From sequence record OZ035795.1: DNA of 64,000 bases. One strand, written 5' to 3'. This document shows positions 2,151-37,182 of this stretch, one piece after another; position 1 is the first letter of the stretch; every line of letters begins with the position of its first letter. The DNA comes from Krischvirus LF73P4. The notes beneath the pieces were generated by a model. It ran no database searches, was not told where the DNA came from, and saw only the letters and a program-made list of their open reading frames with translations. A program made the position numbers and the translations under genes.

Positions 2151-2190
2151 CCCGAAAGGGTTATTTCCTAAATAATAGCGAGGGTGCGAA

Positions 2191-2724
2191 GTGTCTGATT
2201 ATGTAAACAATAAAGAGCTTTACGAAGAAATTTGCCGTTGGAAACAACGAATTGCAGCAGAAGGTCGGCAAGTGCCAATGAGCGATCAAATCGGCCTGGC
2301 AATTATGCAAATCTCTAAAAATCTATCACGGCGTTTTAACTTTTCTGGCTATAGTCAAACATGGCGCGAAGAAATGATCGACGATGGAATCGAAGCGGCG
2401 GTCAAGGGTTTGATTAATTTTGACGAGACAAAGTATAAAAATCCTCATGCTTACATCACGCAAGCGTGCTTTAATGCTTTTGTACAGCGCATTAAAAAAG
2501 AGAGAACAGCGACAGCCGCAAAATACAAATATTTTGTGCATCATGTATATGACGAACGCGACGCTGATATGTGCCAGATTGCTGATGAGGCATTCATACA
2601 GGACATTTACGATAAAATCAACAACTACGAGGAATCGGTCAATAAACCGAAAGCGCCAAAGGTTGAAGATGTATTGACCGAGGAATTGCCTAGCTTGGAC
2701 CAATTTTATGAGATTGAAAATTAA
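2191..2724 (+). CDS. 55: late-transcription sigma factor gp55
   Basis: 177 aa; ...YVNNKEL...[48 protein letters not shown] matches recalled T4 gp55; GTG start after GAGGGTG. Confidence 0.85.
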
Positions 2725-2941
2725 CATTTCCCGTTTGCTGGAAGAAGCAGAGTTTGAAACTGACCTTGTGCCGTATTTCGCCAAATTATTTTTGAGAGAT
2801 TGCGGCGTTCCGGTGATTATCGATCCGTGCAATATCAAATCACCGGATCTTGAGGTCTTGACGGGTACAATCTCACATAGCTATAATGTATCAGAAGATG
2901 AATTTTCTTTAATCATCGACTATATCCCAGAAGGAAAATAA
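2708..2941 (+). CDS. hypothetical protein
   Basis: 77-aa ORF overlapping the end of gene 55. Confidence 0.4.
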
Positions 2942-2942
2942 C

Positions 2943-3230
2943 ATGACTTACGATGAACAGCATGACCAGATTGCAGTGAATGAAGTAGACAAAGTACAAG
3001 CAGAACTAGAGGCTAAAGCCGCTAAGAAAGCGGAAAAGATCTTGCGTAAGAACTCGCGAGAGATTGCACGCCTTAAGCGGTGGGCGGAACAAGCTATCAT
3101 CGATGATAATCGTGATGCGTATATCTACGCTATCGGAAAGTTACGTGATATCTACAAACAGCCACACACGCCAGAACTGCTTTCTGCTATGTGGATTAGT
3201 ACACGGCAAACGGTATTAAGTATGCTGTAA
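2943..3230 (+). CDS. hypothetical protein
   Basis: 95-aa ORF, Lys/Ala-rich helical N-terminal half; followed by a hairpin and T-run. Confidence 0.45.
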   Translation: MTYDEQHDQIAVNEVDKVQAELEAKAAKKAEKILRKNSREIARLKRWAEQAIIDDNRDAYIYAIGKLRDIYKQPHTPELLSAMWISTRQTVLSML

Positions 3231-3320
3231 TGGCTTTATAAGGGAGACTCTGAAAGGGGTTTCCCTTTTTATTTTTCTGTGATATAGTGAGAGCATCGAA
3301 AACGAAGAGAGGAAGAGACT

Positions 3321-4346
3321 ATGAAAATTTTGCTTTTAGGTGATCTGCATACTGGTATCGGTGGCGATGATCCGTGGGTGCATGAGTATATTCTTGATAC
3401 CATCAAGAAAGCGGTTGAATACTCCAAAGAGCATAATATTAAGACATGGATTCAAACAGGGGATTGGTTTGATTGCCGAAAAGCAATTACCCATGAAACC
3501 ATGAAATTTAACCGTACTAAGGTCATCCCGTTACTGGAAGAGGCTGATATTACTTGTTATATCACGGTCGGGAATCATGATATGTTTAAACGAAACAAGA
3601 TCCAGCCTAACGCACCGCGCGAAGTGTTAAGCCAGTATGATTGCATTAAGGTTATCGATAAACCGGAAACAGTTACCTTTGATGGTGTATCATTTGATCT
3701 GTTCCCGTGGTTTTGTGATGACAATAAATCAGAGGTTTTAGAGTTTATTCAAAACTCATTCAGCGAATATTGTGTAGGCCATTGGGAATTGTCCGGTTAC
3801 TATTTCTATAAAGGGCTAAAATCCGAAGGTTATAGCTCGGACTTCCTCAAGAAATACCGTGAAGTGTTTTCGGGTCACTTTCATACTATCAGTGATGGCG
3901 GTAACGTAACGTATATTGGTACACCATACACACTAACGGCGGGTGACGAAAACGATCCGCGTGGTTTTTGGGTATTCGATACCGATACACACAAAAAAGA
4001 GTTTATTCAGAATGACAAAACTTATCATGTGCGTATCACTTACCCGTCAGATGATAAAATCGATGTAGAACGCTTTAAAGGGCTTAGTGTGCGTCTTATC
4101 GCAACGGTCGCTGATAATGGATTAACTAAGTTAGAAAGCGCGTTAGAGGCCGTTGTACACAAGCTAAAAGTGGTCCATAAACTGGAGAGTAGCGCATCAC
4201 AGGAAACAGGTGTTATTGAAGTTAAAAGCACTATTCAGATGGTCTATGAATATCTGGAAGAACAAAACCTAGAACCGGAAGAACTTGCGGCGGTCAAGCG
4301 TATTTCTGATGAACTTTTAGCCGAAGTAAATAACGCAAAAAGTTAG
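3321..4346 (+). CDS. 47: recombination endonuclease subunit gp47 (Mre11-like phosphoesterase)
   Basis: 341 aa; MKIL.LGD.H.G...D.W; TWIQ.GD.FD.RKAITH; GNHD; GHWEL.G.YFYKG; GHFHT match recalled T4 gp47. Confidence 0.9.
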   Translation: MKILLLGDLHTGIGGDDPWVHEYILDTIKKAVEYSKEHNIKTWIQTGDWFDCRKAITHETMKFNRTKVIPLLEEADITCYITVGNHDMFKRNKIQPNAPREVLSQYDCIKVIDKPETVTFDGVSFDLFPWFCDDNKSEVLEFIQNSFSEYCVGHWELSGYYFYKGLKSEGYSSDFLKKYREVFSGHFHTISDGGNVTYIGTPYTLTAGDENDPRGFWVFDTDTHKKEFIQNDKTYHVRITYPSDDKIDVERFKGLSVRLIATVADNGLTKLESALEAVVHKLKVVHKLESSASQETGVIEVKSTIQMVYEYLEEQNLEPEELAAVKRISDELLAEVNNAKS

Positions 4347-4375
4347 TTGACGCGGGGAGAAATCCCCGTTATACT
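4347..4375 (+). promoter_or_regulatory. sigma70-type early promoter TTGACG-N17-TATACT with GGGGA/TCCCC hairpin in the spacer
   Basis: Hexamers with 17-nt spacing downstream of gene 47 stop. Confidence 0.4.
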
Positions 4376-4400
4376 CTCTAAAAATTGATTGGAGGTTGTT

Positions 4401-4652
4401 ATGATTACTAATGCACTGAAAGAAATCAACGAAGGTTTATCGAAATTCACTAAGATCCATGTATTTGAGGTTGTGCGAGATGGTCAGTATATGCTATCAT
4501 TTCGGTCTAACTATGGTTTGTGGACTCATGACGAAATCCCATTTGATCGTGAAAATATCACCAAAGAGGGGCTAACAAACATCGTATCTCGTAAGGTTGC
4601 TGATATTACCCAGAATGTTATTGCTCGTGGGTCTATGGGGTCTGTACGATGA
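4401..4652 (+). CDS. hypothetical protein
   Basis: Track ORF 4389..4652; ATG at 4401 after GGAGG. Confidence 0.45.
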   Translation: MITNALKEINEGLSKFTKIHVFEVVRDGQYMLSFRSNYGLWTHDEIPFDRENITKEGLTNIVSRKVADITQNVIARGSMGSVR

Positions 4653-4966
4653 AAACACTTGCACAAAAAGTAATGGAATTTAATGCCGCGTTGCCTATGT
4701 TTGCTCGACGCAAGGGGATCTCCGTTGATGTATGGTATTCCAAAGAGCATGAAGAAGTTCGGATGATGGTCGAAAAGCGACTCACCGATACTACTGTTAA
4801 GTGTAAGATTCGCTCTATTCCTCGCGCGGAAATAGAATTTGATGAAAGCTATTACTTTACGCTACGTCATACACTGAAACAAGCAGTGGATGAACTTTTA
4901 GAAGACCTGAAACAATATGAAATTGAACGAGGAACATATTATGAATACGACTATGGTCGCGGCTGA
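4649..4966 (+). CDS. hypothetical protein
   Basis: 105-aa ORF, ATGA overlap with upstream stop. Confidence 0.45.
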   Translation: MKTLAQKVMEFNAALPMFARRKGISVDVWYSKEHEEVRMMVEKRLTDTTVKCKIRSIPRAEIEFDESYYFTLRHTLKQAVDELLEDLKQYEIERGTYYEYDYGRG

Positions 4967-5513
4967 TCCTGATTCGATAGCAATGGAATATTTTATTGAA
5001 TTGGTGCACGCGTACACACTAAAACAATCATATTACAAGAATCCGATCTATGGTTATCTGAAAGCGCGTATTGCTAAAATGTGGGGTCAGCCAGTGGTTA
5101 AGCTGTGGTATGATGACGGCTACCGTCGTTACCTTAAAGTGATTCACCCACAAGAATTGATGGTGACTATGGGCATTGGCGACTTTGTAAAAGACAAAGT
5201 AGAATCCATTATTAAGAGTGTGGTTGGTGAATATAATCCGATTGTATATGGTGCTTTCGTCCAGTGGAAACAATCCAGCAAATATTATTTTCCGAATACT
5301 CCATTGACGCTAACAGGTTGGATCTCTGTCATGCATAGTGGGGTATTCCTGGAAGCGTCAGAGACGATGTATAAAGGGTATATTCTCCCACATCGACTGG
5401 TGAAGTGTGATTATCGCTTGACTGTAGGTGAATTTCGCGATATTCTGGAACAACAAGCGGAAGACCTGCAAGGTGAAATTGAAGAATTTTTAGAGGAACA
5501 TAAACTAAAATGA
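4941..5513 (+). CDS. hypothetical protein
   Basis: Track ORF 4917..5513; ATG at 4941 after GAGGAA preferred. Confidence 0.45.
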   Translation: MNTTMVAADPDSIAMEYFIELVHAYTLKQSYYKNPIYGYLKARIAKMWGQPVVKLWYDDGYRRYLKVIHPQELMVTMGIGDFVKDKVESIIKSVVGEYNPIVYGAFVQWKQSSKYYFPNTPLTLTGWISVMHSGVFLEASETMYKGYILPHRLVKCDYRLTVGEFRDILEQQAEDLQGEIEEFLEEHKLK

Positions 5514-5773
5514 TTCTATCGATGACCTACCTTAGACACAGGGTTATAGAAGGTCTTCGCGAATATCTGGCATTGAATAAAGGGATTTATGTTGATCCCT
5601 TTATGACATATGATCCGGCGACACTGGATTATGTGATCATGTTGCCAGATCGCAGAGACACACTAGTTAAAGTGAAGGCGGCAAGTGTTTACAACATTGA
5701 TGAAGATGTGTTAGCATTTAATATTATGGAATGTGTGATTGCGGAGTGGATTAATGGCAAAGTTAAATTTTAA
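5510..5773 (+). CDS. hypothetical protein
   Basis: 87-aa ORF, ATGA overlap with upstream ORF. Confidence 0.4.
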   Translation: MILSMTYLRHRVIEGLREYLALNKGIYVDPFMTYDPATLDYVIMLPDRRDTLVKVKAASVYNIDEDVLAFNIMECVIAEWINGKVKF

Positions 5774-7436
5774 AACCTTGCGCTATCAAAATATAATGAG
5801 CGTGGGTGCTGAACCTGTTGAGATTCAGCTAGACGGATTCAAAAAGACACTAATCACTGGTGTTAACGGTGCTGGTAAATCAACAATGATCGAGGCGCTT
5901 TGCTTTGTGTTGTTCGGTAAACCGTTTCGTAGTATCAAGAAAGGCCAATTGATTAACAGCGTCAACAAAAAGAAACTGTTAGTCGAAGTCTGGTTTGAAC
6001 TGGACGGGAAAGAGTTTTATATAAAACGTGGTCAAAAACCGGAAGTATTCGAAGTGCATCGCGACGGTCAAAAGATCGACGAGAGCGCAAGCACCAAAGA
6101 CTTTCAGGAATATTTTGAAGGTATCATAGGCATGAACCTAGCCAGCTTCAAACAGATCGTTGTTTTAGGCACTGCTGGTTATGTTCCGTTTATGAGTCTT
6201 CCGGCAGCGGGTCGCCGTAAACTGGTCGAGGATTTGCTTGATATTGCTACGCTAGGCGAAATGGATAAACTGAATAAAGCGTATGTGCGCGAGATTACCC
6301 AGAATATCCAAATGCAGGAAATGAAAGCTAATCACGTTCAGCAACAAATCAACACTCATAAAAAGTACATAGAAGACGCTAGCAAGGCGAGTGCCGAGAA
6401 TCTCCAGCGTTTACAGAATATGTATGATAAAGAGGTAGAATCGGCTAAAGCATTTAAAGCCGAAGAAACGCGCTTGACCGATGAGCTATTGGCTGTTGTT
6501 ATGCCGGAAGATCCTAGCGCGGTATTGGCTAAAATTAATACTGCTATCGCACAGATTGGTGCGCAGATCCAGAACTTTGACCGTGTTATCCATATGCACG
6601 AGAAAGGCGGGATCTGTCCTACGTGCACACAACCGATCATTCAGGGTAATGATCAGACTGTACGCGAACAAAAAGCACAAGCGGAACATAAACTGTTTCT
6701 GATTGACGAGAAACGCGTAGAATACGCCGAGAAAGCAAATTCTTTCCAGGCAGCACAAACTAAGGTCTTGGAAATTAAACGCGCTATAGAGTCACAGAGA
6801 GCGAATTTAACGGCATCTGTAGGTCGTGCTAAACAGATCCAGAAAGCAATGCAGGAATTGCAAAAAGAAAGGGTTGACAATTCCGAAGAACTTGCTAAAC
6901 TGGAACACGAACTGGTAGAGATTACTAATGAAAAATCAAAGCTAGTTCTTGAAAAATATCACCGTGGATTTGTAACAGAAATGTTGAAGGATTCCGGTGT
7001 TAAGGCGTCTATCGTCAAGAAATATATTCCATATTTCAATGATCGGATTGCGTATTATCTTGATATTATGGAAGCGGATTATATCTTTACGCTAGATGAA
7101 GAGTTTAACGAAACAATCAAATCACGGGGGCGTGAATCGTTTTCGTATACATCGTTCAGTCAAGGCGAAAAGGCACGTATTGACCTTGCGATGCTCTTTA
7201 CATGGCGTGATGTTGCTGGTAAAGTATCTGGTACTAATATTTCTTTGTTGGTACTCGACGAAATTTATGATGGGGCTACGGACGTTCAGGGCGTAAAAGC
7301 ACTTGATTCCATCATTGACAAGTTAGATGATAACGTGTATATTATCAGCCATCGTGACCATAACCCTGATGATTTTAGCCGTCATCTCAAGATGGTTAAA
7401 CGTGGGCGATTCACTGAAATGAATGTTAACATTTGA
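5754..7436 (+). CDS. 46: recombination endonuclease subunit gp46 (Rad50/SbcC-like ATPase)
   Basis: 560 aa from ATG 5754; Walker A GVNGAGKST, long coiled-coil middle, CPTC zinc hook, C-terminal ...FSQGEKARIDLAMLF...LVLDE match recalled T4 gp46. Confidence 0.9.
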   Translation: MAKLNFKTLRYQNIMSVGAEPVEIQLDGFKKTLITGVNGAGKSTMIEALCFVLFGKPFRSIKKGQLINSVNKKKLLVEVWFELDGKEFYIKRGQKPEVFEVHRDGQKIDESASTKDFQEYFEGIIGMNLASFKQIVVLGTAGYVPFMSLPAAGRRKLVEDLLDIATLGEMDKLNKAYVREITQNIQMQEMKANHVQQQINTHKKYIEDASKASAENLQRLQNMYDKEVESAKAFKAEETRLTDELLAVVMPEDPSAVLAKINTAIAQIGAQIQNFDRVIHMHEKGGICPTCTQPIIQGNDQTVREQKAQAEHKLFLIDEKRVEYAEKANSFQAAQTKVLEIKRAIESQRANLTASVGRAKQIQKAMQELQKERVDNSEELAKLEHELVEITNEKSKLVLEKYHRGFVTEMLKDSGVKASIVKKYIPYFNDRIAYYLDIMEADYIFTLDEEFNETIKSRGRESFSYTSFSQGEKARIDLAMLFTWRDVAGKVSGTNISLLVLDEIYDGATDVQGVKALDSIIDKLDDNVYIISHRDHNPDDFSRHLKMVKRGRFTEMNVNI

Positions 7437-7653
7437 CAGAGTAACGCAGCCGGAGTTAGAATTGTATACCTTAATCAATCTATATTCCGGTGAAGAATAT
7501 GTAGTTAGTATGGGGGACATGAAAAACAGCATATACAGCGATGCAGACATAACAAAAATGTTGTCTTGTCGTCATCATGAGTTTATGCTGGTCCCCAAAT
7601 TTGATAAACTTGATTACCCTGATGCTGGGGTTGCAACAAACTTTAGAACGTGA
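7423..7653 (+). CDS. hypothetical protein
   Basis: 76-aa ORF overlapping the gene 46 stop. Confidence 0.4.
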   Translation: MLTFDRVTQPELELYTLINLYSGEEYVVSMGDMKNSIYSDADITKMLSCRHHEFMLVPKFDKLDYPDAGVATNFRT

Positions 7654-7683
7654 TATACTGATTTTATTTTGGAGATTAATATT

Positions 7684-8061
7684 ATGACTACTTCCGCAAA
7701 CCTGGCTAAAATTACTGTAGCAGACATTCAGAACAAGAAAACCAGCCTCGAATTTGACCGAGCAATGAACAAGATCCGTAAAGCGTGGGTACTGCAAATG
7801 CCGGAAAGCGAGAAAGCTAAAATGAAGGTTATCCCGCAGCAAGCACGCTTTGAACTGTACGCGCATATTGATGATATGGTGCAAAAAGAATGGATCGCTG
7901 CAATGCGCAAGTATTACGATGATTCAATTGCTAAAGGCGCTAAAACTATTCGAGGTAAAGATATTCTCGAAAAGGGTTATCAGATTGACACTGATGAACT
8001 GCTGATTGAAGCCGCTAGCGTAGTAGTAACTCGTCTGATCGCAATTGCTGATGGGAAGTGA
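7684..8061 (+). CDS. hypothetical protein (occupies the T4 rpbA position between 46 and 45)
   Basis: Track ORF 7669..8061; ATG 7684 after GGAGATTAA; positional inference only. Confidence 0.4.
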   Translation: MTTSANLAKITVADIQNKKTSLEFDRAMNKIRKAWVLQMPESEKAKMKVIPQQARFELYAHIDDMVQKEWIAAMRKYYDDSIAKGAKTIRGKDILEKGYQIDTDELLIEAASVVVTRLIAIADGK

Positions 8062-8473: not shown

Positions 8474-9160
8474 ATGAAACTGACTAAAGAAACCATTGCT
8501 ACCCTGAAAAACTTTTCCGCTATTAACCCAGGTATCATCCTGAAAAAAGGAAACGTCCTAATCACCAAAAACATGACAAACGTTGTATATGGTGAAGCGA
8601 CTCTGAATCAAGAACTGGAACACGAAATCGGGATCTATGATCTTAACTCTTTCCTGGGCATTCTGAATCTGGTGGGCGATGAAGCAGATATTACGGTTGA
8701 TAACCGCACCGGAAACATTCGTGTGTCTAATGATCGTCTGAAAATTAATTATCCTGGTGCTAGTGCTGCTGCTATCGTATCACCGAAAGGCCGAGTTACT
8801 CCACCTGCAAGCGATGTAGATTACGAACTGAGCAACGACGATCTGAAACAGCTTATGAAAATGAGCAATCAGCTTAAAGTGGATCGCCTTGAATTTCTAC
8901 CGATTGATGGTCGTCTGATGATCAAAGGCTGGGAAGAGATTGACAAAAATAATCCTAATGAGATGTTTTGTCTTGATATGGGCGAATATACCGGAACCGC
9001 AGACTTCCATTTCTTTATTCGTAAAGATAACATGAAACTGGTTGCTACTGACTTCGGCGATTACAAACTGAGCTTCACTCGCCGTAAGGCTGTATGGCTG
9101 GCAAGTGAAACCGTATCTTATATGATCGCGTGTGACCTTGACTCCAGCTACACCGACTAA
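8474..9160 (+). CDS. 45: sliding clamp gp45
   Basis: 228 aa; MKL.K.T.A.LKNF..IN.GI.LK ... IYDLN.FLGIL.LV.D.A.I matches recalled T4 gp45. Confidence 0.9.
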   Translation: MKLTKETIATLKNFSAINPGIILKKGNVLITKNMTNVVYGEATLNQELEHEIGIYDLNSFLGILNLVGDEADITVDNRTGNIRVSNDRLKINYPGASAAAIVSPKGRVTPPASDVDYELSNDDLKQLMKMSNQLKVDRLEFLPIDGRLMIKGWEEIDKNNPNEMFCLDMGEYTGTADFHFFIRKDNMKLVATDFGDYKLSFTRRKAVWLASETVSYMIACDLDSSYTD

Positions 9161-9192
9161 TATAATGTTTGTGGGGAGTGTAAATACTCCCC
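9138..9192 (+). promoter_or_regulatory. early promoter TTGACT-N17-TATAAT followed by stem-loop GGGGAGT-gtaaat-ACTCCCC
   Basis: Perfect -10 with 17-nt spacer inside 3' end of gene 45; 7-bp hairpin immediately downstream. Confidence 0.5.
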
Positions 9193-9225
9193 GTTTTAAT
9201 GATGTAATTTGTGAGAGGTGATTAT

Positions 9226-11163: not shown

Positions 11164-11192
11164 TTGACAAACTAAGTCGATTCCCCTATAAT
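11164..11192 (+). promoter_or_regulatory. early promoter TTGACA-N17-TATAAT upstream of gene 43
   Basis: Consensus hexamers, 17-nt spacer. Confidence 0.6.
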
Positions 11193-11224
11193 GAGTGTCT
11201 TTCGTAAGTGAAGGAGTTTATATT

Positions 11225-13903
11225 ATGTATTTTCTGTCATGTGAGCGAGTGGGTGATAAGATCTACGAGCGTTATATTGATGATGCTGGACAAGAACAAG
11301 AGCGTTACGTTGAATATACGCCAACTTTATTTCATCATGCCGCGCCCGGTATGGTTACGAATTATAAAGATATCTATGGCAAGCCTTGCATTGCTAAAAA
11401 ATTCCCATCTATGAACGAGGCCAACAAATGGCGTAAAAAGATGGGAGAAATGGGGCAGGAGGCACTAGGGATGGATGATTTTATCATCTCCTATCTGTCC
11501 GATACATATAAAGGCGAGATTCGATATGACCGAAATAAAATCCGTGTAGCCTGGGTTGATATTGAGGTCACTGCACCGGAATTTCCTAAACCAGAAGAAG
11601 CGAAATATCCTATCGATGCTATTACGCATTATGATTCCGTACATGATCGTTTCTTTGTATTTGATTTGAAAGGAAAAAACGGTGAAATCTGGGAAGCAAG
11701 CAAGTCTATTCTTCGACCTGATATTGTAGAGCGCGTTGTTTATAACGTCTATGACACAGAAGATGAATTGCTGTTAGAATACATCCGATTCTTTGAGGAA
11801 AACCGACCCGTTGGTTTCACTGGCTGGAACACAGAAACATTCGATATTCCATATATCATTAAACGTATCAGTAATAAGTTCGGAAGTAGAACCGCTAACC
11901 GTCTAAGCCCATGCGGTAAGATTAAATCCCGAATCTCGCAGGATGATTTTGGCAACGAGCGTGAAGCATTTACGATCATGGGGATCGAAAGCCTTGATTA
12001 TATTGACCTGTACAAGAAATTTAGCTTTACGACTCAACCAACATATGCATTAGATTATGTTGCTGAATATGAGACCGGAATCGGTAAGGTTGATTATGAT
12101 GGTCCGTTAAAGAAATTGCGTGATGACAACCATCAACTTTACATCGATTATAACATCGGCGACGTTGATCGTGTGCTGGCGATTGATAAAAAGCGTGGAT
12201 TTATCGATCTTGTGTATAGTCTATGTTTCTATGCAAAGATTAAATTTAACCATGTTTATAACCCGATGAAAGTATGGGATGCTATTATCTTCGGATCTCT
12301 GAAAGCAGAGGGTAAAGTAGTACCGGAAAATAAGATACAGCCTAAGCAGACTTATCCTGGCGCATTCGTAAAAGAACCTGTACCGAATGCTTACCGTTGG
12401 ATGATGAGCTTTGACTTAACAAGTCTGTACCCATCTATTATTCGACAGGTTAATATTTCTCCTGAAACAATCGCTGGATCTTTTGATGCTGCACCGATGC
12501 ACGAGTATATCAATAAAACTGCACCACGTCCGAGTGATGAGTATTCTTGCTCGCCTAACGGATGGATGTATAGAAAAGATATTCACGGTATCGTACCGAT
12601 TGAGATTAAAAAGGTATTCGATCAGCGTAAGCAGTACAAAAACATGATGTTGGCATGTGATCGCAATGCTGAACTCTGTAAAGCGATTCTACACGATGAA
12701 AATCATGTTTATGGGGGAACCATTAGCTATAGCGTTGAAGTGCGTCACGACTTCGATGAAGCGTTTAAATCGATGCTTTCTGAATTGAGCAAAGATGCCT
12801 TAGAGAAATTGCTGGAAGAATGTAAAGACGAGTCGATCTTGTGCAATACAAACCAGCTTTCTCGAAAAGTTTTGATCAACTCCCTTTATGGTGCGTTGGG
12901 GAATCCTAAATTCCGTTTTTATGATCTCCGTAACGCTAGTGCGATCACACTGTTCGGTCAGCTTGCAATTCAGTGGATTGAGCGTAAGATTAACGAATAC
13001 TTAAACGAGCTTTGCGGAACGACTGATTTTGCATATGTTCGTTATTGTGATACTGACTCCGTTTATGTGCTGGTTAACAATGTTATTGATAAGGTTGGCG
13101 GGGAAGACCGTTTCGACGATACCGAAAAACTTGTTGACTTCCTTGATAATTTCGGTAAACATCGAATGGAACCTATTATCGACAAGGGATATCGCGAGTT
13201 ATGCGAGTACATGAACAACTATGAGCACTTGATGTTTATGGACCGTGAGGCAATTGCTGGTCCTCCGTTGAAATCTGCGGGTATCGGTGGATTCTGGACT
13301 GGTAAAAAGCGTTATGCTCTTAATGTTTGGGATATGGAAGGAACGCGCTTTGCTGAACCTAAGCTAAAAATCATGGGCTTGGAAACGCAACGTAGCTCCA
13401 CCCCTAAAGCATGTCAGAAATCACTGAAAGAATGTATTCGCCGTATGTTGCAGGAAGGTGAAGAGTCATTGCAGGAATACTACGGTATTTTTGAGCAAGA
13501 ATTTAGAAAACTTGACTATCTTGATGTTGCTGCGGTATCATCTGCAAACAACCTACAGAAATACAGCGATTCAAACGGGTATCCGATTAAGGGTTGTCCG
13601 TATGCGGTTAAGAGTGTATTGTGTTATAATCGTAATGCTCGAAAATTCGGACTAGACCCGATTCGTGAGGGTGAGAAGGTTATGATTGTACCGCTTAAAG
13701 ACCGAAATCCGTTTGGAGAAATCTGTTTTGGTTGGTTGTCTGGTACTCGTATTCCACCAGAAATTGAATCAGAGGTGTTGAAGTGGTTGGACTGGCCTTT
13801 GTTGTTTAATAAGACTTTCGTCAAACCACTGGAGAACATTACCACGGCTGCAAAGCTGCAATATGAAAAAGTTGCTTCACTGACTGACCTGTTTGACATT
13901 TAA
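11225..13903 (+). CDS. 43: DNA polymerase gp43 (family B)
   Basis: ATG 11225 after AAGGAG; ...ERYIDD.G.E; exo motifs; SFDLTSLYPSIIRQVNISPET; NSLYGALGN; YCDTDSVYV match recalled T4 gp43. Confidence 0.95.
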   Translation: MYFLSCERVGDKIYERYIDDAGQEQERYVEYTPTLFHHAAPGMVTNYKDIYGKPCIAKKFPSMNEANKWRKKMGEMGQEALGMDDFIISYLSDTYKGEIRYDRNKIRVAWVDIEVTAPEFPKPEEAKYPIDAITHYDSVHDRFFVFDLKGKNGEIWEASKSILRPDIVERVVYNVYDTEDELLLEYIRFFEENRPVGFTGWNTETFDIPYIIKRISNKFGSRTANRLSPCGKIKSRISQDDFGNEREAFTIMGIESLDYIDLYKKFSFTTQPTYALDYVAEYETGIGKVDYDGPLKKLRDDNHQLYIDYNIGDVDRVLAIDKKRGFIDLVYSLCFYAKIKFNHVYNPMKVWDAIIFGSLKAEGKVVPENKIQPKQTYPGAFVKEPVPNAYRWMMSFDLTSLYPSIIRQVNISPETIAGSFDAAPMHEYINKTAPRPSDEYSCSPNGWMYRKDIHGIVPIEIKKVFDQRKQYKNMMLACDRNAELCKAILHDENHVYGGTISYSVEVRHDFDEAFKSMLSELSKDALEKLLEECKDESILCNTNQLSRKVLINSLYGALGNPKFRFYDLRNASAITLFGQLAIQWIERKINEYLNELCGTTDFAYVRYCDTDSVYVLVNNVIDKVGGEDRFDDTEKLVDFLDNFGKHRMEPIIDKGYRELCEYMNNYEHLMFMDREAIAGPPLKSAGIGGFWTGKKRYALNVWDMEGTRFAEPKLKIMGLETQRSSTPKACQKSLKECIRRMLQEGEESLQEYYGIFEQEFRKLDYLDVAAVSSANNLQKYSDSNGYPIKGCPYAVKSVLCYNRNARKFGLDPIREGEKVMIVPLKDRNPFGEICFGWLSGTRIPPEIESEVLKWLDWPLLFNKTFVKPLENITTAAKLQYEKVASLTDLFDI

Positions 13904-13947
13904 GATAAAGTGTGTATAATGGCGGGTGTTGGGTGACGATACCCGCC
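13893..13947 (+). promoter_or_regulatory. early promoter TTGACA-N16-(TG)TATAAT followed by stem-loop GGCGGGT...ACCCGCC
   Basis: Hexamers overlapping gene 43 stop; 7-bp stem just after -10. Confidence 0.5.
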
Positions 13948-13964
13948 AATGTGAGAAATATATT

Positions 13965-14153
13965 ATGAGAGACATTGAAAAGATTAAACGTGAACGTGAG
14001 GAAGGCATAGAGCATTTCAAGAAAGTTCACGGAAATCACAGCAACGAAGTATTTGTGACGATCAATGTTGATGCGATGAAAAAGTTAATTCAAGAGCACT
14101 ACAAAGATCGAATAACAATGAAGCAATTAAAGTATTACGGATTAACTGAATAG
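13965..14153 (+). CDS. hypothetical protein
   Basis: Track ORF 13926..14153; ATG 13965 downstream of promoter/stem-loop. Confidence 0.4.
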   Translation: MRDIEKIKREREEGIEHFKKVHGNHSNEVFVTINVDAMKKLIQEHYKDRITMKQLKYYGLTE

Positions 14154-34440: not shown

Positions 34441-34450
34441 CTGACTATTA

Positions 34451-34519
34451 AGCCGATCCTTGTGGTCGGCTTTTTTATTTGAAAAGTTGTTTGACTTCCA
34501 TAATCCAGCATTGCATAAT
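34451..34519 (+). promoter_or_regulatory. intrinsic terminator (AAGCCGATCC..GGTCGGCTTTTTT) followed by promoter TTGACT-N17-CATAAT
   Basis: GC stem plus U-tract after ORF 34048..34440; promoter 10 nt downstream. Confidence 0.5.
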
Positions 34520-34550
34520 ACACACAGTGAAACAAAAAGGAGATTCAAAA

Positions 34551-34757
34551 ATGAAAGTACGTTGCATTGAAACAGATCACATCAATTATAGCTTTAGTGT
34601 TGGGTGTGATTATGATGTTGATGTATTCACGGACAATAGCGGAAACACATTTGATGTAGTTCATGGTGACTATATTTGGTTTTACTTTGACAAACAACAA
34701 CTTACTGCAACCAAACGAAACGGTGATCCGGTAGCAAAATTTGAAATAATCGAATAA
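34551..34757 (+). CDS. hypothetical protein
   Basis: Track ORF 34479..34757; ATG 34551 after AAAGGAGA downstream of promoter. Confidence 0.45.
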   Translation: MKVRCIETDHINYSFSVGCDYDVDVFTDNSGNTFDVVHGDYIWFYFDKQQLTATKRNGDPVAKFEIIE

Positions 34758-34763
34758 AGTCTA

Positions 34764-34823
34764 TTGACACCAGAACAAGGGAGTAGTAACATACTCCCAT
34801 ACCAAACAAAAGGAGAATCAAAG
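34764..34823 (+). repeat. PeSL-like cassette B: TTGACA-N17-TAACAT, stem-loop GGGAGTA-gtaaca-TACTCCC, RBS AAAGGAGAATCA
   Basis: About 60-bp module, near-identical to cassette D. Confidence 0.6.
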
Positions 34824-35096
34824 ATGAACAACGAAAACAGCAAGGTGTTAGCAATTGCCGATAAAGTAGGTTACTGGAAATGCTGGGATGATATGGAGAA
34901 ATTAGGCGGTCGCTATCTCGATAACTTAGAGTTGCATTATTGCCAAGCGCGTAATGCAGAAGTTGCGGGAGTAGCAATCGAAGATATTCCGTCTAAAGTC
35001 TTCGGATTCTCTAAAGATGATACTCTAGAATATGTTTTCAAGGCTGTTATGGATCAAGCATGGGAAGACGCAGAGACACGCGCTCTTGATTGGTGA
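34824..35096 (+). CDS. hypothetical protein (downstream of repeat cassette B)
   Basis: Track ORF 34764..35096; ATG 34824 after AAAGGAGAATCA. Confidence 0.45.
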   Translation: MNNENSKVLAIADKVGYWKCWDDMEKLGGRYLDNLELHYCQARNAEVAGVAIEDIPSKVFGFSKDDTLEYVFKAVMDQAWEDAETRALDW

Positions 35097-35100
35097 TAAT

Positions 35101-35271
35101 ATGAACTGGTATAAAATTTGGAAAAATCAGGTGGAGGCTTATCTAGGGTATAAGCCCACCGACGAAGAATTACTTGAAGCAATGTACGAAGACGGAATAA
35201 ATCCGAAAGTAGCCGCGCAAGAATACGCGGAATGGATGAAGGTCGAAGATAACATAAAGGGGAAACTATGA
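35101..35271 (+). CDS. hypothetical 56-aa protein
   Basis: Track ORF 35032..35271; ATG 35101. Confidence 0.35.
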   Translation: MNWYKIWKNQVEAYLGYKPTDEELLEAMYEDGINPKVAAQEYAEWMKVEDNIKGKL

Positions 35272-35468
35272 AGAAAATGATTGCAATTGCTTTGCTGGCT
35301 AGTGCATGTACTGTAAATGCTAATACCGCAGCGATGGTCGCGGCTGTAACTGCCGCAAATGCTTCCGTTATGGCATCGCAAGAGGCAGCACGCCAGCAAG
35401 CACAACAAGAAGCCCAGCGAAAAGCGCATGAGGCGACGAAAAAATTTCACGAAAATAACAAAAATTAG
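35268..35468 (+). CDS. small secreted protein or lipoprotein
   Basis: 66 aa; MKKMIAIALLASAC|TVNA: signal peptide with lipobox-like LASAC (or AxA cleavage); Ala/Gln-rich mature part. Confidence 0.45.
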   Translation: MKKMIAIALLASACTVNANTAAMVAAVTAANASVMASQEAARQQAQQEAQRKAHEATKKFHENNKN

Positions 35469-35530
35469 TTGACTCCAAAGGTCATCGGTAGTATTATACT
35501 CCCATACCGAAACGAACTGGAGGAATTAAA
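35469..35530 (+). repeat. PeSL-like cassette C (diverged): TTGACT-N17-TATTAT, GGTAGTA..TACTCCC, RBS GGAGGAA
   Basis: Same architecture, one stem mismatch. Confidence 0.5.
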
Positions 35531-35773
35531 ATGGTTAAAGTTAATGTTATCGAAGTTGCACTGTATGACGCTGGTATCTTCCTGAATGAAAAAGAAGCTG
35601 CCGTTCTCGATGAACTGAAAACTGTTTTTGTTCCTGTAGTAGAAGACGTAGAAGCAATCAAAATCGCTTCTCGTAAACTGTCCCGCGAAGCATTCGATAT
35701 GATTGATCCGGTTTTCAAAGTTATGCACGAATGCGCGGTTATGATGACCGAAGAAGAAGCGAAAAATTTCTAA
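35531..35773 (+). CDS. hypothetical acidic protein (downstream of repeat cassette C)
   Basis: 80-aa ORF after GGAGGAA. Confidence 0.45.
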   Translation: MVKVNVIEVALYDAGIFLNEKEAAVLDELKTVFVPVVEDVEAIKIASRKLSREAFDMIDPVFKVMHECAVMMTEEEAKNF

Positions 35774-35780
35774 AAACTAG

Positions 35781-35838
35781 TTGACGTAAAGATAAGGGAG
35801 TAGTAACATACTCCCATACCAAACGAAAGGAGAATCAC
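35781..35838 (+). repeat. PeSL-like cassette D: TTGACG-N17-TAACAT, stem-loop GGGAGTAGTAACATACTCCC, RBS AAAGGAGAATCA
   Basis: Shares with B the run AAGGGAGTAGTAACATACTCCCATACCAAAC.AAAGGAGAATCA. Confidence 0.6.
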
Positions 35839-36051
35839 ATGAAATCTATCGAGCAAGTAGTAACAGAGTTTATGAGCTACGAAGGAAACCGCATCTTTGG
35901 ACGTTCTCAAGTTCGCGAGATCGTAGAAGAAGTTGCGGGAGAGTTTGCGGAATCTGGTCACGTTATCACGCAAGAACGTAAAGAAGAAGCAGTAAGCCAG
36001 ATCATGGCTATGCAGAAAATGCGTATTAATGCACGAGCGGGTAAAAATTAA
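35839..36051 (+). CDS. hypothetical protein (downstream of repeat cassette D)
   Basis: 70-aa ORF after AAAGGAGAATCA. Confidence 0.45.
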   Translation: MKSIEQVVTEFMSYEGNRIFGRSQVREIVEEVAGEFAESGHVITQERKEEAVSQIMAMQKMRINARAGKN

Positions 36052-36062
36052 AAAATAGTTGT

Positions 36063-36124
36063 TGACACAGGATTAAGGGAGTAGTAAGATACTCCCATCA
36101 AGACAAAACATTGAGGAATATATT
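36063..36124 (+). repeat. PeSL-like cassette E: TTGACA-N17-TAAGAT, stem-loop GGGAGTAGTAAGATACTCCC
   Basis: Same module upstream of DUF1311 ORF. Confidence 0.55.
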
Positions 36125-36883
36125 ATGAAAAACATTATCGCTGCTATCGTTCTTTCCGCTACTGCTTTCGGTGCTAATGCTGCGTCCTTTGATTGCGCTA
36201 AAGCTACTACCAAATCAGAGAAGTTTATTTGTGCTAATGAGTCTATCTCCGCACTGGACTCTAAACTTCATGAAGTGTATGTTAAGGCTGTTAAGATTGA
36301 TCCGTCTCTGAAACAAGAGCAACGAAACTGGAATAAAACTGTTCGTGATACAATGATCAATATCGGGCAGATTCAGCCACTGGAGGCTGTATACAACGCT
36401 CAAATCCAAAACTTGATGAATGTATTACCTAAAGAAGAAACCGCGTCAGAAAGCGATTCAGAGACTTCTGCGAAGGTTGAAGAAGAACAACCGAAACAGG
36501 AAGCAAAAGTGGTAGAAGAACCGAAGGTCGAAACTTTTACCTATCAATGCACCGTTCGTTATGAGTGGAGTATGAAAGATGGAATTTCCACAAAAATTAA
36601 AGAAGCGCCACTGTATGCCAAATATGGAAATCAACCAGGAGATCTTAAAGTAACCATTAAAAATGGGAAGATGGTTGATTTTGTATACATTGATGAATAC
36701 AACGTACACAAAGCAAACGTACAAGAAACCGTTATGACTAAAGGCGGGTTTTATAAGAATGTTGGCAAGAAAGATCTATATGAATACTCCGTTTTCGAAC
36801 CAAACGACGGAACTATTCGATTCGAAAAACGTCATCCTACATTCGGTGGCGCAATTGATGTAGATCAATACGTTTGCAAGTAA
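36125..36883 (+). CDS. secreted DUF1311/LprI-like protein (putative periplasmic lysozyme-inhibitor fold)
   Basis: 252 aa; signal peptide MKNIIAAIVLSATAFGANA; then SFDCAKATTKSEKFICANESISALDSKLHEVY.......Q.W pattern typical of the DUF1311 N-terminal domain; downstream of repeat cassette E. Confidence 0.5.
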   Translation: MKNIIAAIVLSATAFGANAASFDCAKATTKSEKFICANESISALDSKLHEVYVKAVKIDPSLKQEQRNWNKTVRDTMINIGQIQPLEAVYNAQIQNLMNVLPKEETASESDSETSAKVEEEQPKQEAKVVEEPKVETFTYQCTVRYEWSMKDGISTKIKEAPLYAKYGNQPGDLKVTIKNGKMVDFVYIDEYNVHKANVQETVMTKGGFYKNVGKKDLYEYSVFEPNDGTIRFEKRHPTFGGAIDVDQYVCK

Positions 36884-36894
36884 GAGGTTAAATT

Positions 36895-37182
36895 ATGAAA
36901 TTCAATAACATGAAGATCACAAAAGATTGGTGGGATGCGATGCGAGATACTCCAGAAACCAAATTGAATGAGACCACAACAACAATACAAGTTGATTACG
37001 AAGATCCGAAAGACATATACAGAGAGATTTTAATCAGAGATCTTATAAAAGCTGGAAACTATCAAACACCAGATGGCCTTATTGACATGATGGTTAAAGG
37101 TCTGTATAGTGGTAAAAATACAGATATTTTACCGTGGTACGAGGGATATTTTAAAACATATCGTGACCACAACCGAAAATAA
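36895..37182 (+). CDS. hypothetical protein
   Basis: 95-aa ORF. Confidence 0.4.
   Translation: MKFNNMKITKDWWDAMRDTPETKLNETTTTIQVDYEDPKDIYREILIRDLIKAGNYQTPDGLIDMMVKGLYSGKNTDILPWYEGYFKTYRDHNRK

What the first reader, a model, noticed from the sequence alone, without database searches (positions are those of the whole stretch)
34491..36124. Array of near-identical promoter/stem-loop/RBS cassettes (PeSL-like), each fronting a different small ORF
Four to five copies of a roughly 60-bp module recur within 1.6 kb: TTGAC(A/G/T), a 17-nt spacer, a weak -10 (TAACAT/TATTAT/TAAGAT) embedded in the loop of a 7-bp inverted repeat GGGAGTA-N6-TACTCCC, then CATACCAAAC.AAAGGAGAATCA and ATG. Copies at about 34764 and 35781 are almost identical over about 45 nt, while the ORFs they drive are unrelated. 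This matches the promoter-early-stem-loop mobile cassettes reported for RB49/phi1-type phages, proposed to shuffle gene modules by recombination between repeats. The stem-loops lack a U-tract, so they are not canonical terminators; they could be RNA processing or stability elements or recombination hotspots.
Basis: partly seen in the sequence, partly recalled or inferred. Interest (0 to 1): 0.65.

Follow-up and report, generated by a model that had tools for sequence, protein, structure and literature searches.

The report
Known PeSL promoter cassettes, RB49-like phage
This stretch of an RB49-like T4-type coliphage carries five copies of the already described "PeSL" promoter/stem-loop/ribosome-site cassette in front of small genes of unknown function, and comparison with related phages shows that those genes have been lost or gained by recombination inside the cassettes, as published in 2010.

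Summary
Five sigma70-type promoter cassettes lie at 34491, 34764, 35469, 35781 and 36062 on the + strand. Three carry a perfect 7-bp hairpin, GGGAGTA-N6-TACTCCC, around the -10. One has a degenerate stem. One has a true terminator upstream instead.

The window is a Krischvirus (RB49-like, 97.8% identical to vB-Eco-KMB43). This is the phage group in which PeSLs were defined (Arbiol et al. 2010). The copies align in register with published RB49 PeSLs.

Among 11 relatives the repeat-flanked ORFs vary combinatorially, and the junctions are chimeric cassettes:
- P0/P1 where ORF68 is absent.
- P2/P3 in UPWr_E1.
- Two different junction types at P4 where a 51-aa ORF cassette is absent.

phi1 ORFan263.1, listed in the 2010 paper, sits in the P4 slot. 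The finding is therefore real and correctly interpreted, but already known.

Caveats:
- Promoter and terminator activity are inferred, not measured.
- The hairpins have no U-tract, and neither does the one stem-loop tested in the paper.
- No ectopic transposition was seen.

Side observation: T1-like siphophages carry a cassette of the same design around their unexplained 21-nt repeat. One of these fronts an ORF68 homolog.

The parts
34450..34480 (+). Canonical intrinsic terminator (9-bp hairpin AAGCCGATC...GGTCGGCTT plus T-run) ending the upstream gp52-ORF69-ORF130 unit. It is the upstream stem-loop of cassette P0.
34491..34553 (+). Cassette P0: -35 TTGACT 34491-34496, -10 CATAAT 34514-34519, leader, GGAG 34539-34542, ATG 34551. 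There is no stem at the -10. This is the PeSL class with the stem-loop upstream of the -35, like RB49 PeSL195/194.
34551..34757 (+). ORF68 (68 aa, phrog_9122, function unknown). Variable cargo: present in 13 of about 58 Krischvirus records. A 60% identical homolog occurs in T1-like siphophages.
34764..34826 (+). Cassette P1: -35 TTGACA 34764-34769, stem arms 34779-34785 and 34792-34798, -10 TAACAT 34787-34792 in the loop and 3' arm, predicted +1 A at 34799, GGAG 34812-34815, ATG 34824.
34824..35468 (+). Mini-operon ORF90 (34824-35096), ORF56 (35101-35271) and ORF66 (35268-35468; the N-terminus looks like a signal or lipoprotein peptide). ORF66 is variable cargo.
35469..35533 (+). Cassette P2: -35 TTGACT 35469-35474, -10 TATTAT 35492-35497, 3' arm TACTCCC retained, 5' arm degenerate (ATCGGTA), ATG 35531.
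35531..35773 (+). ORF80 (80 aa, no family match). Variable cargo: present in 31 of about 58 Krischvirus records.
35781..35841 (+). Cassette P3: -35 TTGACG 35781-35786, stem arms 35796-35802 and 35809-35815, -10 TAACAT 35804-35809, ATG 35839.
35839..36051 (+). ORF70 (70 aa, phrog_14966, function unknown). Present in all 11 relatives examined.
36037..36127 (+). Cassette P4 with its AT-rich leader: -35 TTGACA 36062-36067, stem arms 36077-36083 and 36090-36096, -10 TAAGAT 36085-36090, ATG 36125. It is a chimera of the two cassettes that flank a 51-aa ORF in RB49, FL04 and others. This is also the slot of phi1 ORFan263.1.
36125..36883 (+). ORF252: predicted secreted protein with an N-terminal LprI (PF07007) domain. 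Its C-terminal half is replaced in GEC-3S, phi1 and UPWr_E1.

Best explanation
These are PeSLs (promoter-early stem-loops), the composite regulatory cassettes of RB49/phi1-type T4-like phages.

Each cassette is a host sigma70 early promoter. It has an AT-rich leader containing the stop codon of the upstream gene, TTGAC(N), a 17-nt spacer, a TAnnnT -10, and CCC at -3 to -1. A short unstructured A/C-rich 5' UTR with a GGAG Shine-Dalgarno follows. In P1, P3 and P4 a 7-bp G-run/C-run hairpin encloses the -10.

Transcription from a cassette's own promoter is predicted to start at the A just after the 3' arm, so its own mRNA lacks the hairpin. The hairpin exists only in read-through RNA from the upstream unit. 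There it lies about 20 nt after the upstream stop codon. It would act as an attenuator or 3'-end-forming element that insulates each small early unit.

The cassettes share 40-60 nt of near identity and are direct repeats 280-700 bp apart. The phage's homologous recombination system can therefore cross over between them. This deletes, and by the reverse reaction or by exchange between co-infecting phages inserts or swaps, the ORFan modules between them, each with its own expression signals.

Basis of each step:
- Shown here: the architecture, its family resemblance to published PeSLs, and the chimeric junctions.
- Inferred from the literature: promoter activity, start site and attenuation.
For: 1. 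Source. The window is 97.8% identical to Krischvirus vB-Eco-KMB43 and about 95% to RB49.

2. Architecture. The window copies align in register with RB49 PeSL211/210, 210/209, 206/205, 194/193 and 262/261. They match the definition in PMC2839356.

3. Context. All are intergenic on the coding strand, in front of ORFans in the region downstream of gp52. About seven more cassettes with other stems at other positions occur in the window. Two of them flank the family-B DNA polymerase, as the paper reports for g43.

4. Constraint pattern over about 33 copies from 12 genomes. Both stem arms are almost invariant, with two changes. One keeps a sense-strand G.U pair. T-12, A-11, A-8 and T-7 never change. 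The -10 positions 3-4 (the loop) and the 9-nt spacer upstream vary freely.

5. Recombination.
- Phages lacking ORF68 have the 5' half of P0 fused to the 3' half of P1, just after the -10.
- UPWr_E1 has the 5' half of P2 fused to the 3' half of P3, without ORF80.
- The window's P4 is the leader and -35 of one RB49 cassette joined to the body of the next, without the 51-aa ORF. MIZ4, GEC-3S and phiS lack the same ORF but have a different junction, in the AT-rich leader. These are independent events.
- All four presence/absence combinations occur for ORF68 x ORF51 and for ORF68 x ORF80.
- Census: ORF68 in 13, ORF80 in 31 and ORF51 in 36 of about 58 records.

6. phi1 ORFan263.1, listed in the 2010 paper as phi1-specific, lies in the P4 slot.

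7. The RB49 early-promoter consensus, including C at -3 to -1, was confirmed by 5'-end mapping according to PMC1524935.
Against: - No transcript data exist for this phage. Promoter strength, start site and termination are inferred.
- The -10 hexamers match the consensus at only 4-5 of 6 positions. A generic promoter scan of the region finds no more sites than shuffles do (19 versus 23). Only the top-scoring intergenic sites stand out.
- The hairpins have no U-tract (tails ATACCAAAC and ATCAAGAC).
- P2 has lost its stem yet is as conserved as the others. Conservation of the arms could therefore reflect promoter constraints (CCC at -3 to -1) or homogenisation between copies rather than selection for pairing.
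- No compensatory double changes were seen.
- Not every rearrangement is cassette-mediated. The left end of the ORF66+ORF80 deletion lies in the end of ORF56. phiS has an internal deletion at 35260-35418. The 36526-36865 replacement is inside a gene.
- Each cargo ORF was found once per genome and, in the 11 loci examined, always in the same slot. There is evidence for deletion and allelic exchange but none for insertion at ectopic cassettes.
Confidence: 0.85

Rival explanations
1. The repeats are only conserved early promoters and translation-initiation regions, kept similar by selection for expression. The gene-content differences arise by illegitimate recombination or by independent acquisition unrelated to the repeats.
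For: Some rearrangements in the same 1.6 kb do not end in cassettes: the left end of the ORF66+ORF80 deletion, the phiS deletion at 35260-35418, and the intragenic replacement at 36526-36865. Much of the shared sequence (TTGAC, TAnnnT, CCC at -3 to -1, GGAG) is what any RB49 early promoter needs.
Against: Three slots show chimeric cassettes whose 5' and 3' halves match the two flanking cassettes of the longer arrangement. The ORF51 slot shows two distinct crossover points inside the same cassette pair. The paper detected the predicted circular excision products experimentally for other PeSL pairs.
Confidence: 0.07
2. The inverted repeat GGGAGTA-N6-TACTCCC acts at the DNA level as the binding site of a dimeric phage or host protein. 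This could be an operator overlapping the -10 that shuts early promoters off, or a target that initiates recombination. On this view it does not act as an RNA hairpin.
For: The arms are conserved in sequence, not merely in pairing, and no compensatory changes were seen. The palindrome overlaps the -10, as operators do. There is no U-tract. The cassette's own transcript would not contain the hairpin. [quoted passage not shown]
Against: Other cassettes in the same genomes carry different stems: CGGGGA/TCCCCG, GGGGATCG/CGATCCCC and GGGGAGT/ACTCCCC. These lie at different positions relative to the promoter, which does not fit a single sequence-specific operator. The polarity is always G-run 5' and C-run 3' on the sense strand. 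The only pairing-preserving arm change gives G.U on the sense strand but C.A on the other (phi1). Both points suggest a strand-specific, RNA-type structure. Crossover points are spread over the cassette: AT leader, -35, after the -10, and between stem and SD. That fits general homologous recombination better than site-specific cleavage. P2 works as a recombination partner without an intact palindrome.
Confidence: 0.08

Closest known systems
PeSLs (promoter-early stem-loops) of coliphages RB49 and phi1 (Arbiol et al. 2010, PMC2839356; extended to other T4-like myoviruses by Comeau et al. 2014, PMC4122927)
   Same: Same phage genus and the same locus (downstream of gene 52; phi1 ORFan263.1 sits in the P4 slot). 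The layout is the same: AT-rich leader with the upstream stop codon, sigma70 -35 and -10, G-run/C-run stem-loop overlapping the -10 or upstream of the -35, conserved leader, SD and ATG. They front ORFans and mark indel junctions with chimeric cassettes.
   Different: Nothing essential. This isolate has its own combination of cargo: ORF68, ORF66 and ORF80 are present, while ORF51 and ORFan263.1 are absent. With about 58 genomes now available, the same slots can be seen to have recombined repeatedly. That could not be seen from the two genomes of 2010.
Morons of lambdoid phages (Hendrix et al. 2000, as discussed in PMC2839356)
   Same: Single small accessory genes carrying their own promoter and terminator, inserted between resident genes.
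   Different: Morons are not flanked by a conserved repeated linker. They are thought to arrive by illegitimate recombination and are often transcribed against the flow. Here the regulatory cassette itself is the repeated homology, and all units are co-oriented.
Integron gene cassettes
   Same: Arrays of small promoter-served ORFs that can be excised as circles (mini-circles were shown for other PeSL pairs in the 2010 paper).
   Different: No integrase and no attC-type site. Crossovers are spread along the cassette, as expected for general homologous recombination. Each cassette brings its own promoter rather than relying on a common Pc.
21-nt intergenic direct repeats of T1-like phages (aaATAGCACnnnTTGnTAAAA; TLS paper, PMC11447400)
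   Same: In Shfl1 the repeat is the 5' end of a roughly 75-nt unit of the same design: stop codon and conserved box, a G/C-clamped hairpin enclosing a -10-like hexamer, an A/C-rich leader, SD and ATG. It precedes small variable ORFs, one of them a homolog of ORF68.
   Different: A different phage family (Drexlerviridae). The conserved box lies a constant 22 nt from the -10, too far for a sigma70 -35, and most copies have an extended -10. There is no detectable DNA homology to the Krischvirus cassettes beyond a short leader resemblance. The published paper leaves the function open.

Membership tests
PeSL (Arbiol et al. 2010) | Located in a T4-type phage genome, intergenic, mostly in hyperplastic regions directly upstream of ORFans | tested here: met
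   The window is a Krischvirus. All five sites are intergenic. The downstream ORFs have no Pfam family except LprI in ORF252, and only unknown-function PHROGs.
PeSL (Arbiol et al. 2010) | Sigma70-like -35 and -10 boxes with an AT-rich region upstream that contains the stop codon of the preceding gene | tested here: met
   TTGAC(N), 17 nt, then CATAAT, TAACAT, TATTAT, TAACAT or TAAGAT, scoring 9-10 of 12. Leaders such as AAAAATTTCTAAAAACTAG carry the upstream stop codon.
PeSL (Arbiol et al. 2010) | A stable stem-loop, usually G-run then C-run, in one of five positions relative to the promoter | tested here: met
   P1, P3 and P4 have a perfect 7-bp stem overlapping the -10. The hairpin is in the predicted RNA minimum-free-energy fold of each segment, with whole-segment energies of -12 to -15 kcal/mol. 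P0 has its hairpin upstream of the -35. P2 has a degenerate stem of about 4 pairs, so the feature is not met for that copy.
PeSL (Arbiol et al. 2010) | Shine-Dalgarno sequence and start codon of the downstream gene at the 3' end | tested here: met
   GGAG or GAGG lies 7-9 nt before the ATG in all five copies.
PeSL (Arbiol et al. 2010) | Sequence similarity to the published RB49 and phi1 PeSLs | tested here: met
   Alignment A1 with five RB49 PeSLs has 17 invariant and 13 nearly invariant columns in common register. Orthologous copies are present in RB49 and phi1 themselves.
PeSL (Arbiol et al. 2010) | Insertions, deletions and replacements between related genomes end in the cassettes, leaving chimeric PeSLs | tested here: met
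   Three slots have chimeric junctions, one of them with two independent junction types. A minority of events do not involve cassettes.
PeSL (Arbiol et al. 2010) | Promoter activity in vivo | not testable with these tools
   The paper showed it for PeSL206/205 and indirectly for 193/192, but not for this subfamily. The RB49 early consensus was confirmed by 5'-end mapping according to PMC1524935.
PeSL (Arbiol et al. 2010) | The stem-loop lowers expression of downstream genes (terminator/attenuator) | not testable with these tools
   This was shown only for the stem-loop of PeSL211/210. That stem also lacks a U-tract.
PeSL (Arbiol et al. 2010) | Formation of circular excision products (mini-circles) by recombination between neighbouring cassettes | not testable with these tools
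   The paper showed it for ORF192 and ORF210 by inverse PCR. Nothing comparable can be computed here.
Canonical intrinsic (Rho-independent) terminator | G+C-rich hairpin immediately followed by a U-tract on the transcribed strand | tested here: not met
   The P1, P3 and P4 hairpins are followed by ATACCAAAC, ATACCAAAC and ATCAAGAC. Only the hairpin at 34450-34472 meets the definition. On the minus strand the P1 and P3 hairpins do have T-rich tails.
Known structured RNA families (Rfam 15) | Match to a curated covariance model at its gathering score | tested here: not met
   There are no matches in the whole window.

The most novel reading that the evidence does not exclude
The promoter/stem-loop/leader cassette design may not be confined to T4-like myoviruses. 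In T1-like siphophages (Drexlerviridae) the 21-nt intergenic repeat, whose function the literature lists as an open question, may be the 5' end of an analogous cassette. That cassette has a hairpin enclosing an extended -10 at a fixed 22-nt distance, an A/C-rich leader and an SD. It bounds variable small ORFs, and one of them is a homolog of this window's ORF68. If so, coliphages of unrelated families use the same linker strategy and draw on a shared pool of small early genes.
Probability: 0.35. Interest if true: 0.55.

Novelty: already known. Interest (0 to 1): 0.25.

Why it matters
PeSLs are one of the few concrete sequence mechanisms proposed for modular evolution in large virulent phages. 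The linker is itself the promoter and insulator, so any module that recombines in arrives ready to be expressed and does not disturb its neighbours. This window adds no new principle.

The roughly 58 Krischvirus genomes now available do show something the two genomes of 2010 could not. The same slots have recombined repeatedly, at different crossover points, and the cargo assorts almost freely. For annotation, the practical point is that these repeats should be labelled as early promoter cassettes and not as terminators or unknown repeats.

The side observation in T1-like phages would matter more if it holds. It offers a testable answer to a published open question about their 21-nt repeats.

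Tried and rejected
- Rfam scan of the whole window: no family matched.
- Generic promoter scan: the total number of promoter-like sites is not above shuffles. That statistic alone says nothing. Only the top intergenic, co-oriented sites are meaningful.
- Covariation: the arms hardly vary among about 33 copies. There is one G.U-preserving change, one pair-breaking change and no compensatory doubles. A covariation test would have had no power, so I did not build a covariance model.
- RNase III site: rejected on my own knowledge, because 7-bp stems are far shorter than known RNase III substrates.
- Cruciform extrusion: considered unlikely for 7-bp arms with a 6-nt loop. This is inference and was not tested.
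- Desplats et al. 2002 (PMC135041), the primary source for RB49 5'-end mapping, is not held in the library. I cite it only through PMC1524935.
- Ectopic copies of the cargo ORFs elsewhere in Krischvirus genomes: each was found once per record.
- Paralogy among the cargo ORFs: none.
- My first attempt at family searches failed because two start codons were mis-indexed. The searches were repeated correctly.
- An earlier reading of the P2 stem as 7 bp with one mismatch was a register error. At the homologous offsets only about 4 pairs form.
Full report
**What is there.**
The sequence between 34440 and 36130 contains five co-oriented cassettes on the + strand. I call them P0 to P4 and name each by the first base of its -35 box: 34491, 34764, 35469, 35781 and 36062. 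The repeat finder groups the last four as one 57-nt family, and links the 3' half of P0 to the 3' half of P1. The core GTAGTANNATACTCCCAT occurs four times in the 64-kb window against 0.02 expected. The 25-mer around the hairpin of P1 and P3 is identical in both, against 0 expected.

Every copy has the following parts:
- TTGAC(N), then exactly 17 nt.
- A -10-like hexamer: CATAAT, TAACAT, TATTAT, TAACAT or TAAGAT.
- ACACAC or ACTCCC.
- An A/C-rich leader.
- GGAG or GAGG, then ATG.

In P1, P3 and P4 a perfect 7-bp inverted repeat, GGGAGTA-N6-TACTCCC, encloses the -10. The hairpin appears in the predicted RNA minimum-free-energy fold of each surrounding 72-77-nt segment. Those segments have whole-segment energies of -12 to -15 kcal/mol. 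P2 keeps the 3' arm but has ATCGGTA as its 5' arm, so only about four pairs remain and the hairpin is not predicted. P0 has no stem at the -10. It is preceded by a textbook terminator, a 9-bp hairpin plus T-run at 34450-34480.

**What the cassettes serve.**
The ORFs behind them are 68 aa (P0), 90+56+66 aa (P1, a tightly packed mini-operon), 80 aa (P2), 70 aa (P3) and 252 aa (P4). They are unrelated to each other. None has a Pfam family except an N-terminal LprI domain in the 252-aa protein. PHROGs gives only unknown-function families, or none at all.

**Where the window comes from.**
The region is 97.8% identical to Escherichia phage vB-Eco-KMB43 and about 95% to RB49. All 58 matching records are Krischvirus-type coliphages. 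Upstream lies the topoisomerase II medium subunit gene. This is the phage group in which PeSLs were defined.

**Comparison with the definition.**
Arbiol et al. 2010 (PMC2839356) describe PeSLs as follows. They are repeated intergenic motifs, mostly in hyperplastic regions and mostly upstream of ORFans. They consist of an AT-rich stretch with the upstream stop codon, a sigma70-like -35 and -10, and a stem-loop often made of a G-run and a C-run. The stem-loop can take one of five positions, most commonly between the boxes or overlapping the -10. The SD and start codon of the next gene follow. There are about 51 in RB49 and 52 in phi1.

The window copies align in register with RB49 PeSL211/210, 210/209, 206/205, 194/193 and 262/261. 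P0 resembles RB49 PeSL195/194, which also has a terminator hairpin upstream of the -35.

The window holds about seven further intergenic cassettes with other stems at other positions:
- CGGGGA/TCCCCG between the boxes at 4347.
- GGGGAGT/ACTCCCC downstream of the -10 at 9138.
- Others at 11164, 13893, 20214, 27052 and 56460.

The cassettes at 11164 and 13893 flank a family-B DNA polymerase. The paper reports the same for gene 43.

**The comparative test.**
They do not. I fetched the locus from 11 relatives and mapped collinearity breaks and cargo.

Slot A.
- ORF68 is absent from RB49, phi1, GEC-3S, MIZ4, phiS, GoldenSnicker and Delraymugoa.
- In these phages one cassette remains. Its 5' half is P0 (TTGACTTCC...GCATAATACAC) and its 3' half is P1 (CCATACCAAACAAAAGGAGAATCAAAGATG, followed by ORF90).
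- The switch lies just after the -10.

Slot B.
- UPWr_E1 lacks ORF80. It has a cassette with the 5' half of P2 (CCAAAGGTCGTCGGTAG) and the 3' half of P3 (CGAAAGAAGGAGAATCACATG, followed by ORF70).
- RB49, phi1 and GoldenSnicker lack ORF66, P2 and ORF80 together.
- There the right junction is in the AT-rich leader of P3. The left one is in the end of ORF56, which is not a cassette.

Slot C.
- RB49, phi1, FL04, GoldenSnicker, UPWr_E1 and Makalu_001 carry an extra 51-aa ORF between ORF70 and ORF252. It has its own cassette with a different stem (GGGGATCGnCGATCCCC, between the boxes).
- The window and KMB43 lack it. Their P4 is the leader and -35 of the left cassette joined to the body of the right one.
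- MIZ4, GEC-3S and phiS also lack it, but their junction is further left, in the AT-rich leader.
- Whatever the ancestral state, at least one, and most simply two, independent cassette-by-cassette crossovers are needed.
- phi1 has yet another ORF in this slot: ORFan263.1, which the 2010 paper lists as phi1-specific. Delraymugoa has a relative of it.

Assortment and census.
- All four presence/absence combinations occur for ORF68 with ORF51 and for ORF68 with ORF80.
- In the phage collection ORF68 is present in 13, ORF80 in 31 and ORF51 in 36 of about 58 Krischvirus records.

Limits.
- Some changes do not involve cassettes: the phiS deletion at 35260-35418 and the replacement at 36526-36865 inside the 252-aa gene.
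- Each cargo ORF was found once per genome, and always in the same slot in the loci examined.
- The data therefore show deletion and exchange at homologous slots, not insertion at ectopic cassettes.

**How it most likely works.**
The promoter reading rests on three things. The first is the consensus match. The second is the pattern of constraint. Over about 33 copies from 12 genomes T-12, A-11, A-8 and T-7 never change, while hexamer positions 3 and 4 and the 9-nt spacer upstream of the stem vary freely. The third is the literature. The RB49 early-promoter consensus, including C at -3 to -1, agrees with 5'-end mapping of early transcripts according to PMC1524935. The paper also found PeSL206/205 to be a very strong promoter in a lacZ fusion.

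With the usual spacing, transcription would start at the A right after ACTCCC. A cassette's own mRNA would then begin with the unstructured leader AUACCAAAC...GGAG and would not contain the hairpin. The hairpin would exist only in RNA reading through from the upstream unit, about 20 nt after that unit's stop codon. That is the position of a terminator, attenuator or 3'-end stabiliser.

But the one stem-loop the paper tested (PeSL211/210) has none either: GGGGATCACGTATCCCC is followed by TATACTACAC. It still reduced downstream lacZ as much as rrnB T1. That assay does not separate termination from effects on RNA stability. I therefore treat "attenuates read-through expression" as likely by analogy, and the exact mechanism as open.

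Two points favour a strand-specific, RNA-type structure over a duplex protein site. First, the polarity is always G-run first on the sense strand, in every positional class. Second, the single pairing-preserving arm change (phi1 P4, TACTCTC) gives G.U on the sense strand but C.A on the other.

Two points count against strong selection for pairing. P2 has lost its stem yet is equally conserved. The CCC of the 3' arm is also part of the general promoter consensus.

The recombination role is the best supported part. It is read directly from the chimeric junctions. The spread of crossover points over the cassette fits general homologous recombination on short homology patches, as the authors proposed, rather than a site-specific enzyme. 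Those points are the AT leader, the -35, just after the -10, and between stem and SD.

**Verdict on novelty.**
It concerns the same element family, in the same phage genus, at a locus that the original paper already counted among its differential ORFs. What the present data add is breadth. With about 58 genomes, the same slots can be seen to have recombined repeatedly and the cargo to assort nearly freely.

**Side observation outside the window.**
ORF68 has a 60% identical homolog, Shfl1p10, in the T1-like siphophage Shfl1. Upstream of it lies a sequence with these parts:
- TAGCACTTTTTGTTAAAAC.
- A hairpin, GGGGTT-gcgatatagt-AACCCC, with a -10-like TATAGT in its loop.
- The leader ATCAACAACGAACGAGGA, then ATG.

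In the first 10 kb of Shfl1, eight of nine copies of this box are followed by the same arrangement. A -10-like hexamer lies a constant 22 nt after TTGnTA, and six of the eight have TGn in front of it. The hexamer is enclosed by a 6-9-bp G/C-clamped hairpin, and a similar leader and SD follow.

The box is the known 21-nt intergenic repeat of T1-like phages. The TLS paper lists its function as an open question and does not mention the hairpin and -10 arrangement in the passages I could search (PMC11447400). The 78-nt unit alone matches hundreds of Drexlerviridae genomes in different gene contexts.

Gene content varies at it. phi2013 lacks the ORF68 homolog, and there the cassette directly drives the next gene. 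phiL lacks two ORFs, with the junction at the stop codon and the start of the repeat.

This looks like an analogue of PeSLs in an unrelated phage family that shares at least one cargo gene. I could not check the original T1 genome paper, so I cannot say whether the arrangement was described there.

Noticed in passing
L014 (Shigella phage Shfl1, HM035024) 1000-7940; cassette in front of Shfl1p10 at L014:2896-2973: In this T1-like siphophage, eight of nine copies of the known 21-nt intergenic repeat (ATAGCACnnnTTGnTAAAA; function listed as an open question in PMC11447400) are followed by the same arrangement. A -10-like hexamer lies a constant 22 nt after the repeat's TTGnTA and is enclosed by a G/C-clamped hairpin. 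An A/C-rich leader (CATCAACAACGAAnGAGGA) and ATG follow. This is the PeSL design. The 78-nt unit alone matches hundreds of Drexlerviridae genomes in different contexts, and ORF content varies at it (phi2013, phiL).
   Followed up: partly
window 34551-34757: ORF68, a variable Krischvirus cargo gene (13 of about 58 records), has a 60% identical homolog (about 73-76% DNA identity over 95-113 nt) in T1-like Shigella and Escherichia siphophages (Shfl1, Sfin-1 to Sfin-6 and others). This indicates gene flow between unrelated phage families. The upstream cassettes are family-specific, not shared.
   Followed up: partly
window 34779-34798 and 35796-35815, minus strand: Read on the minus strand, the P1 and P3 hairpins are followed by T-rich tails (TTGTTCTGGT and TTATCTTTAC), and the scanner calls them terminator-like. 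They might stop antisense transcription. This is not a general property of PeSLs, because stems placed directly after the -35 lack such a tail.
   Followed up: no
window 9138-9200: A cassette with a consensus promoter (TTGACT, 17 nt, TATAAT) carries nearly the same hairpin as P1 (GGGGAGT-gtaaat-ACTCCCC). Here it lies downstream of the -10, so it would be in the 5' end of its own transcript, and it is followed by GTTTT.
   Followed up: no
window 11164-11225 and 13893-13965: Promoter and stem cassettes flank an 892-aa family-B DNA polymerase (gp43). This matches the 2010 paper's remark that g43 is bordered by PeSLs in RB49 and phi1.
   Followed up: partly
window 37082-37110: The best-scoring promoter-like site of the region (TTGACA, 17 nt, TATAGT; 11 of 12) lies inside the 3' end of ORF95 (36895-37182). 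It is about 95 nt upstream of the next ORF (37206) and has no stem-loop.
   Followed up: no
window 36125-36883 (breakpoints about 36526 and 36865): ORF252 has a signal-peptide-like N-terminus and an LprI (lysozyme inhibitor, PF07007) domain. Its C-terminal half, and the following ORF95 in some phages, is replaced by a diverged version in GEC-3S, phi1 and UPWr_E1 (about 65% aa identity overall). This is mosaicism inside a gene, not at a cassette.
   Followed up: partly
window 34958-34971 and 35928-35941: An exact 14-nt repeat, AGAAGTTGCGGGAG (encoding EVAG), lies inside the otherwise unrelated ORF90 and ORF70. Roughly 0.05 such pairs are expected in 5 kb. It may be chance or a recombination scar.
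   Followed up: no
records OZ035808.1 versus AY343333.1 (both named RB49): The record labelled 'Krischvirus RB49' (OZ035808, 162,105 bp) contains ORF80. The original RB49 sequence (AY343333) lacks it. The two records are therefore not the same isolate at this locus.
   Followed up: no
window 35260-35418 (relative to phiS, L006:2530-2748): phiS has a deletion that appears to fuse ORF56 to the 3' part of ORF66 (annotated as one 72-aa CDS). This rearrangement in the same locus has no cassette at either end.
   Followed up: no
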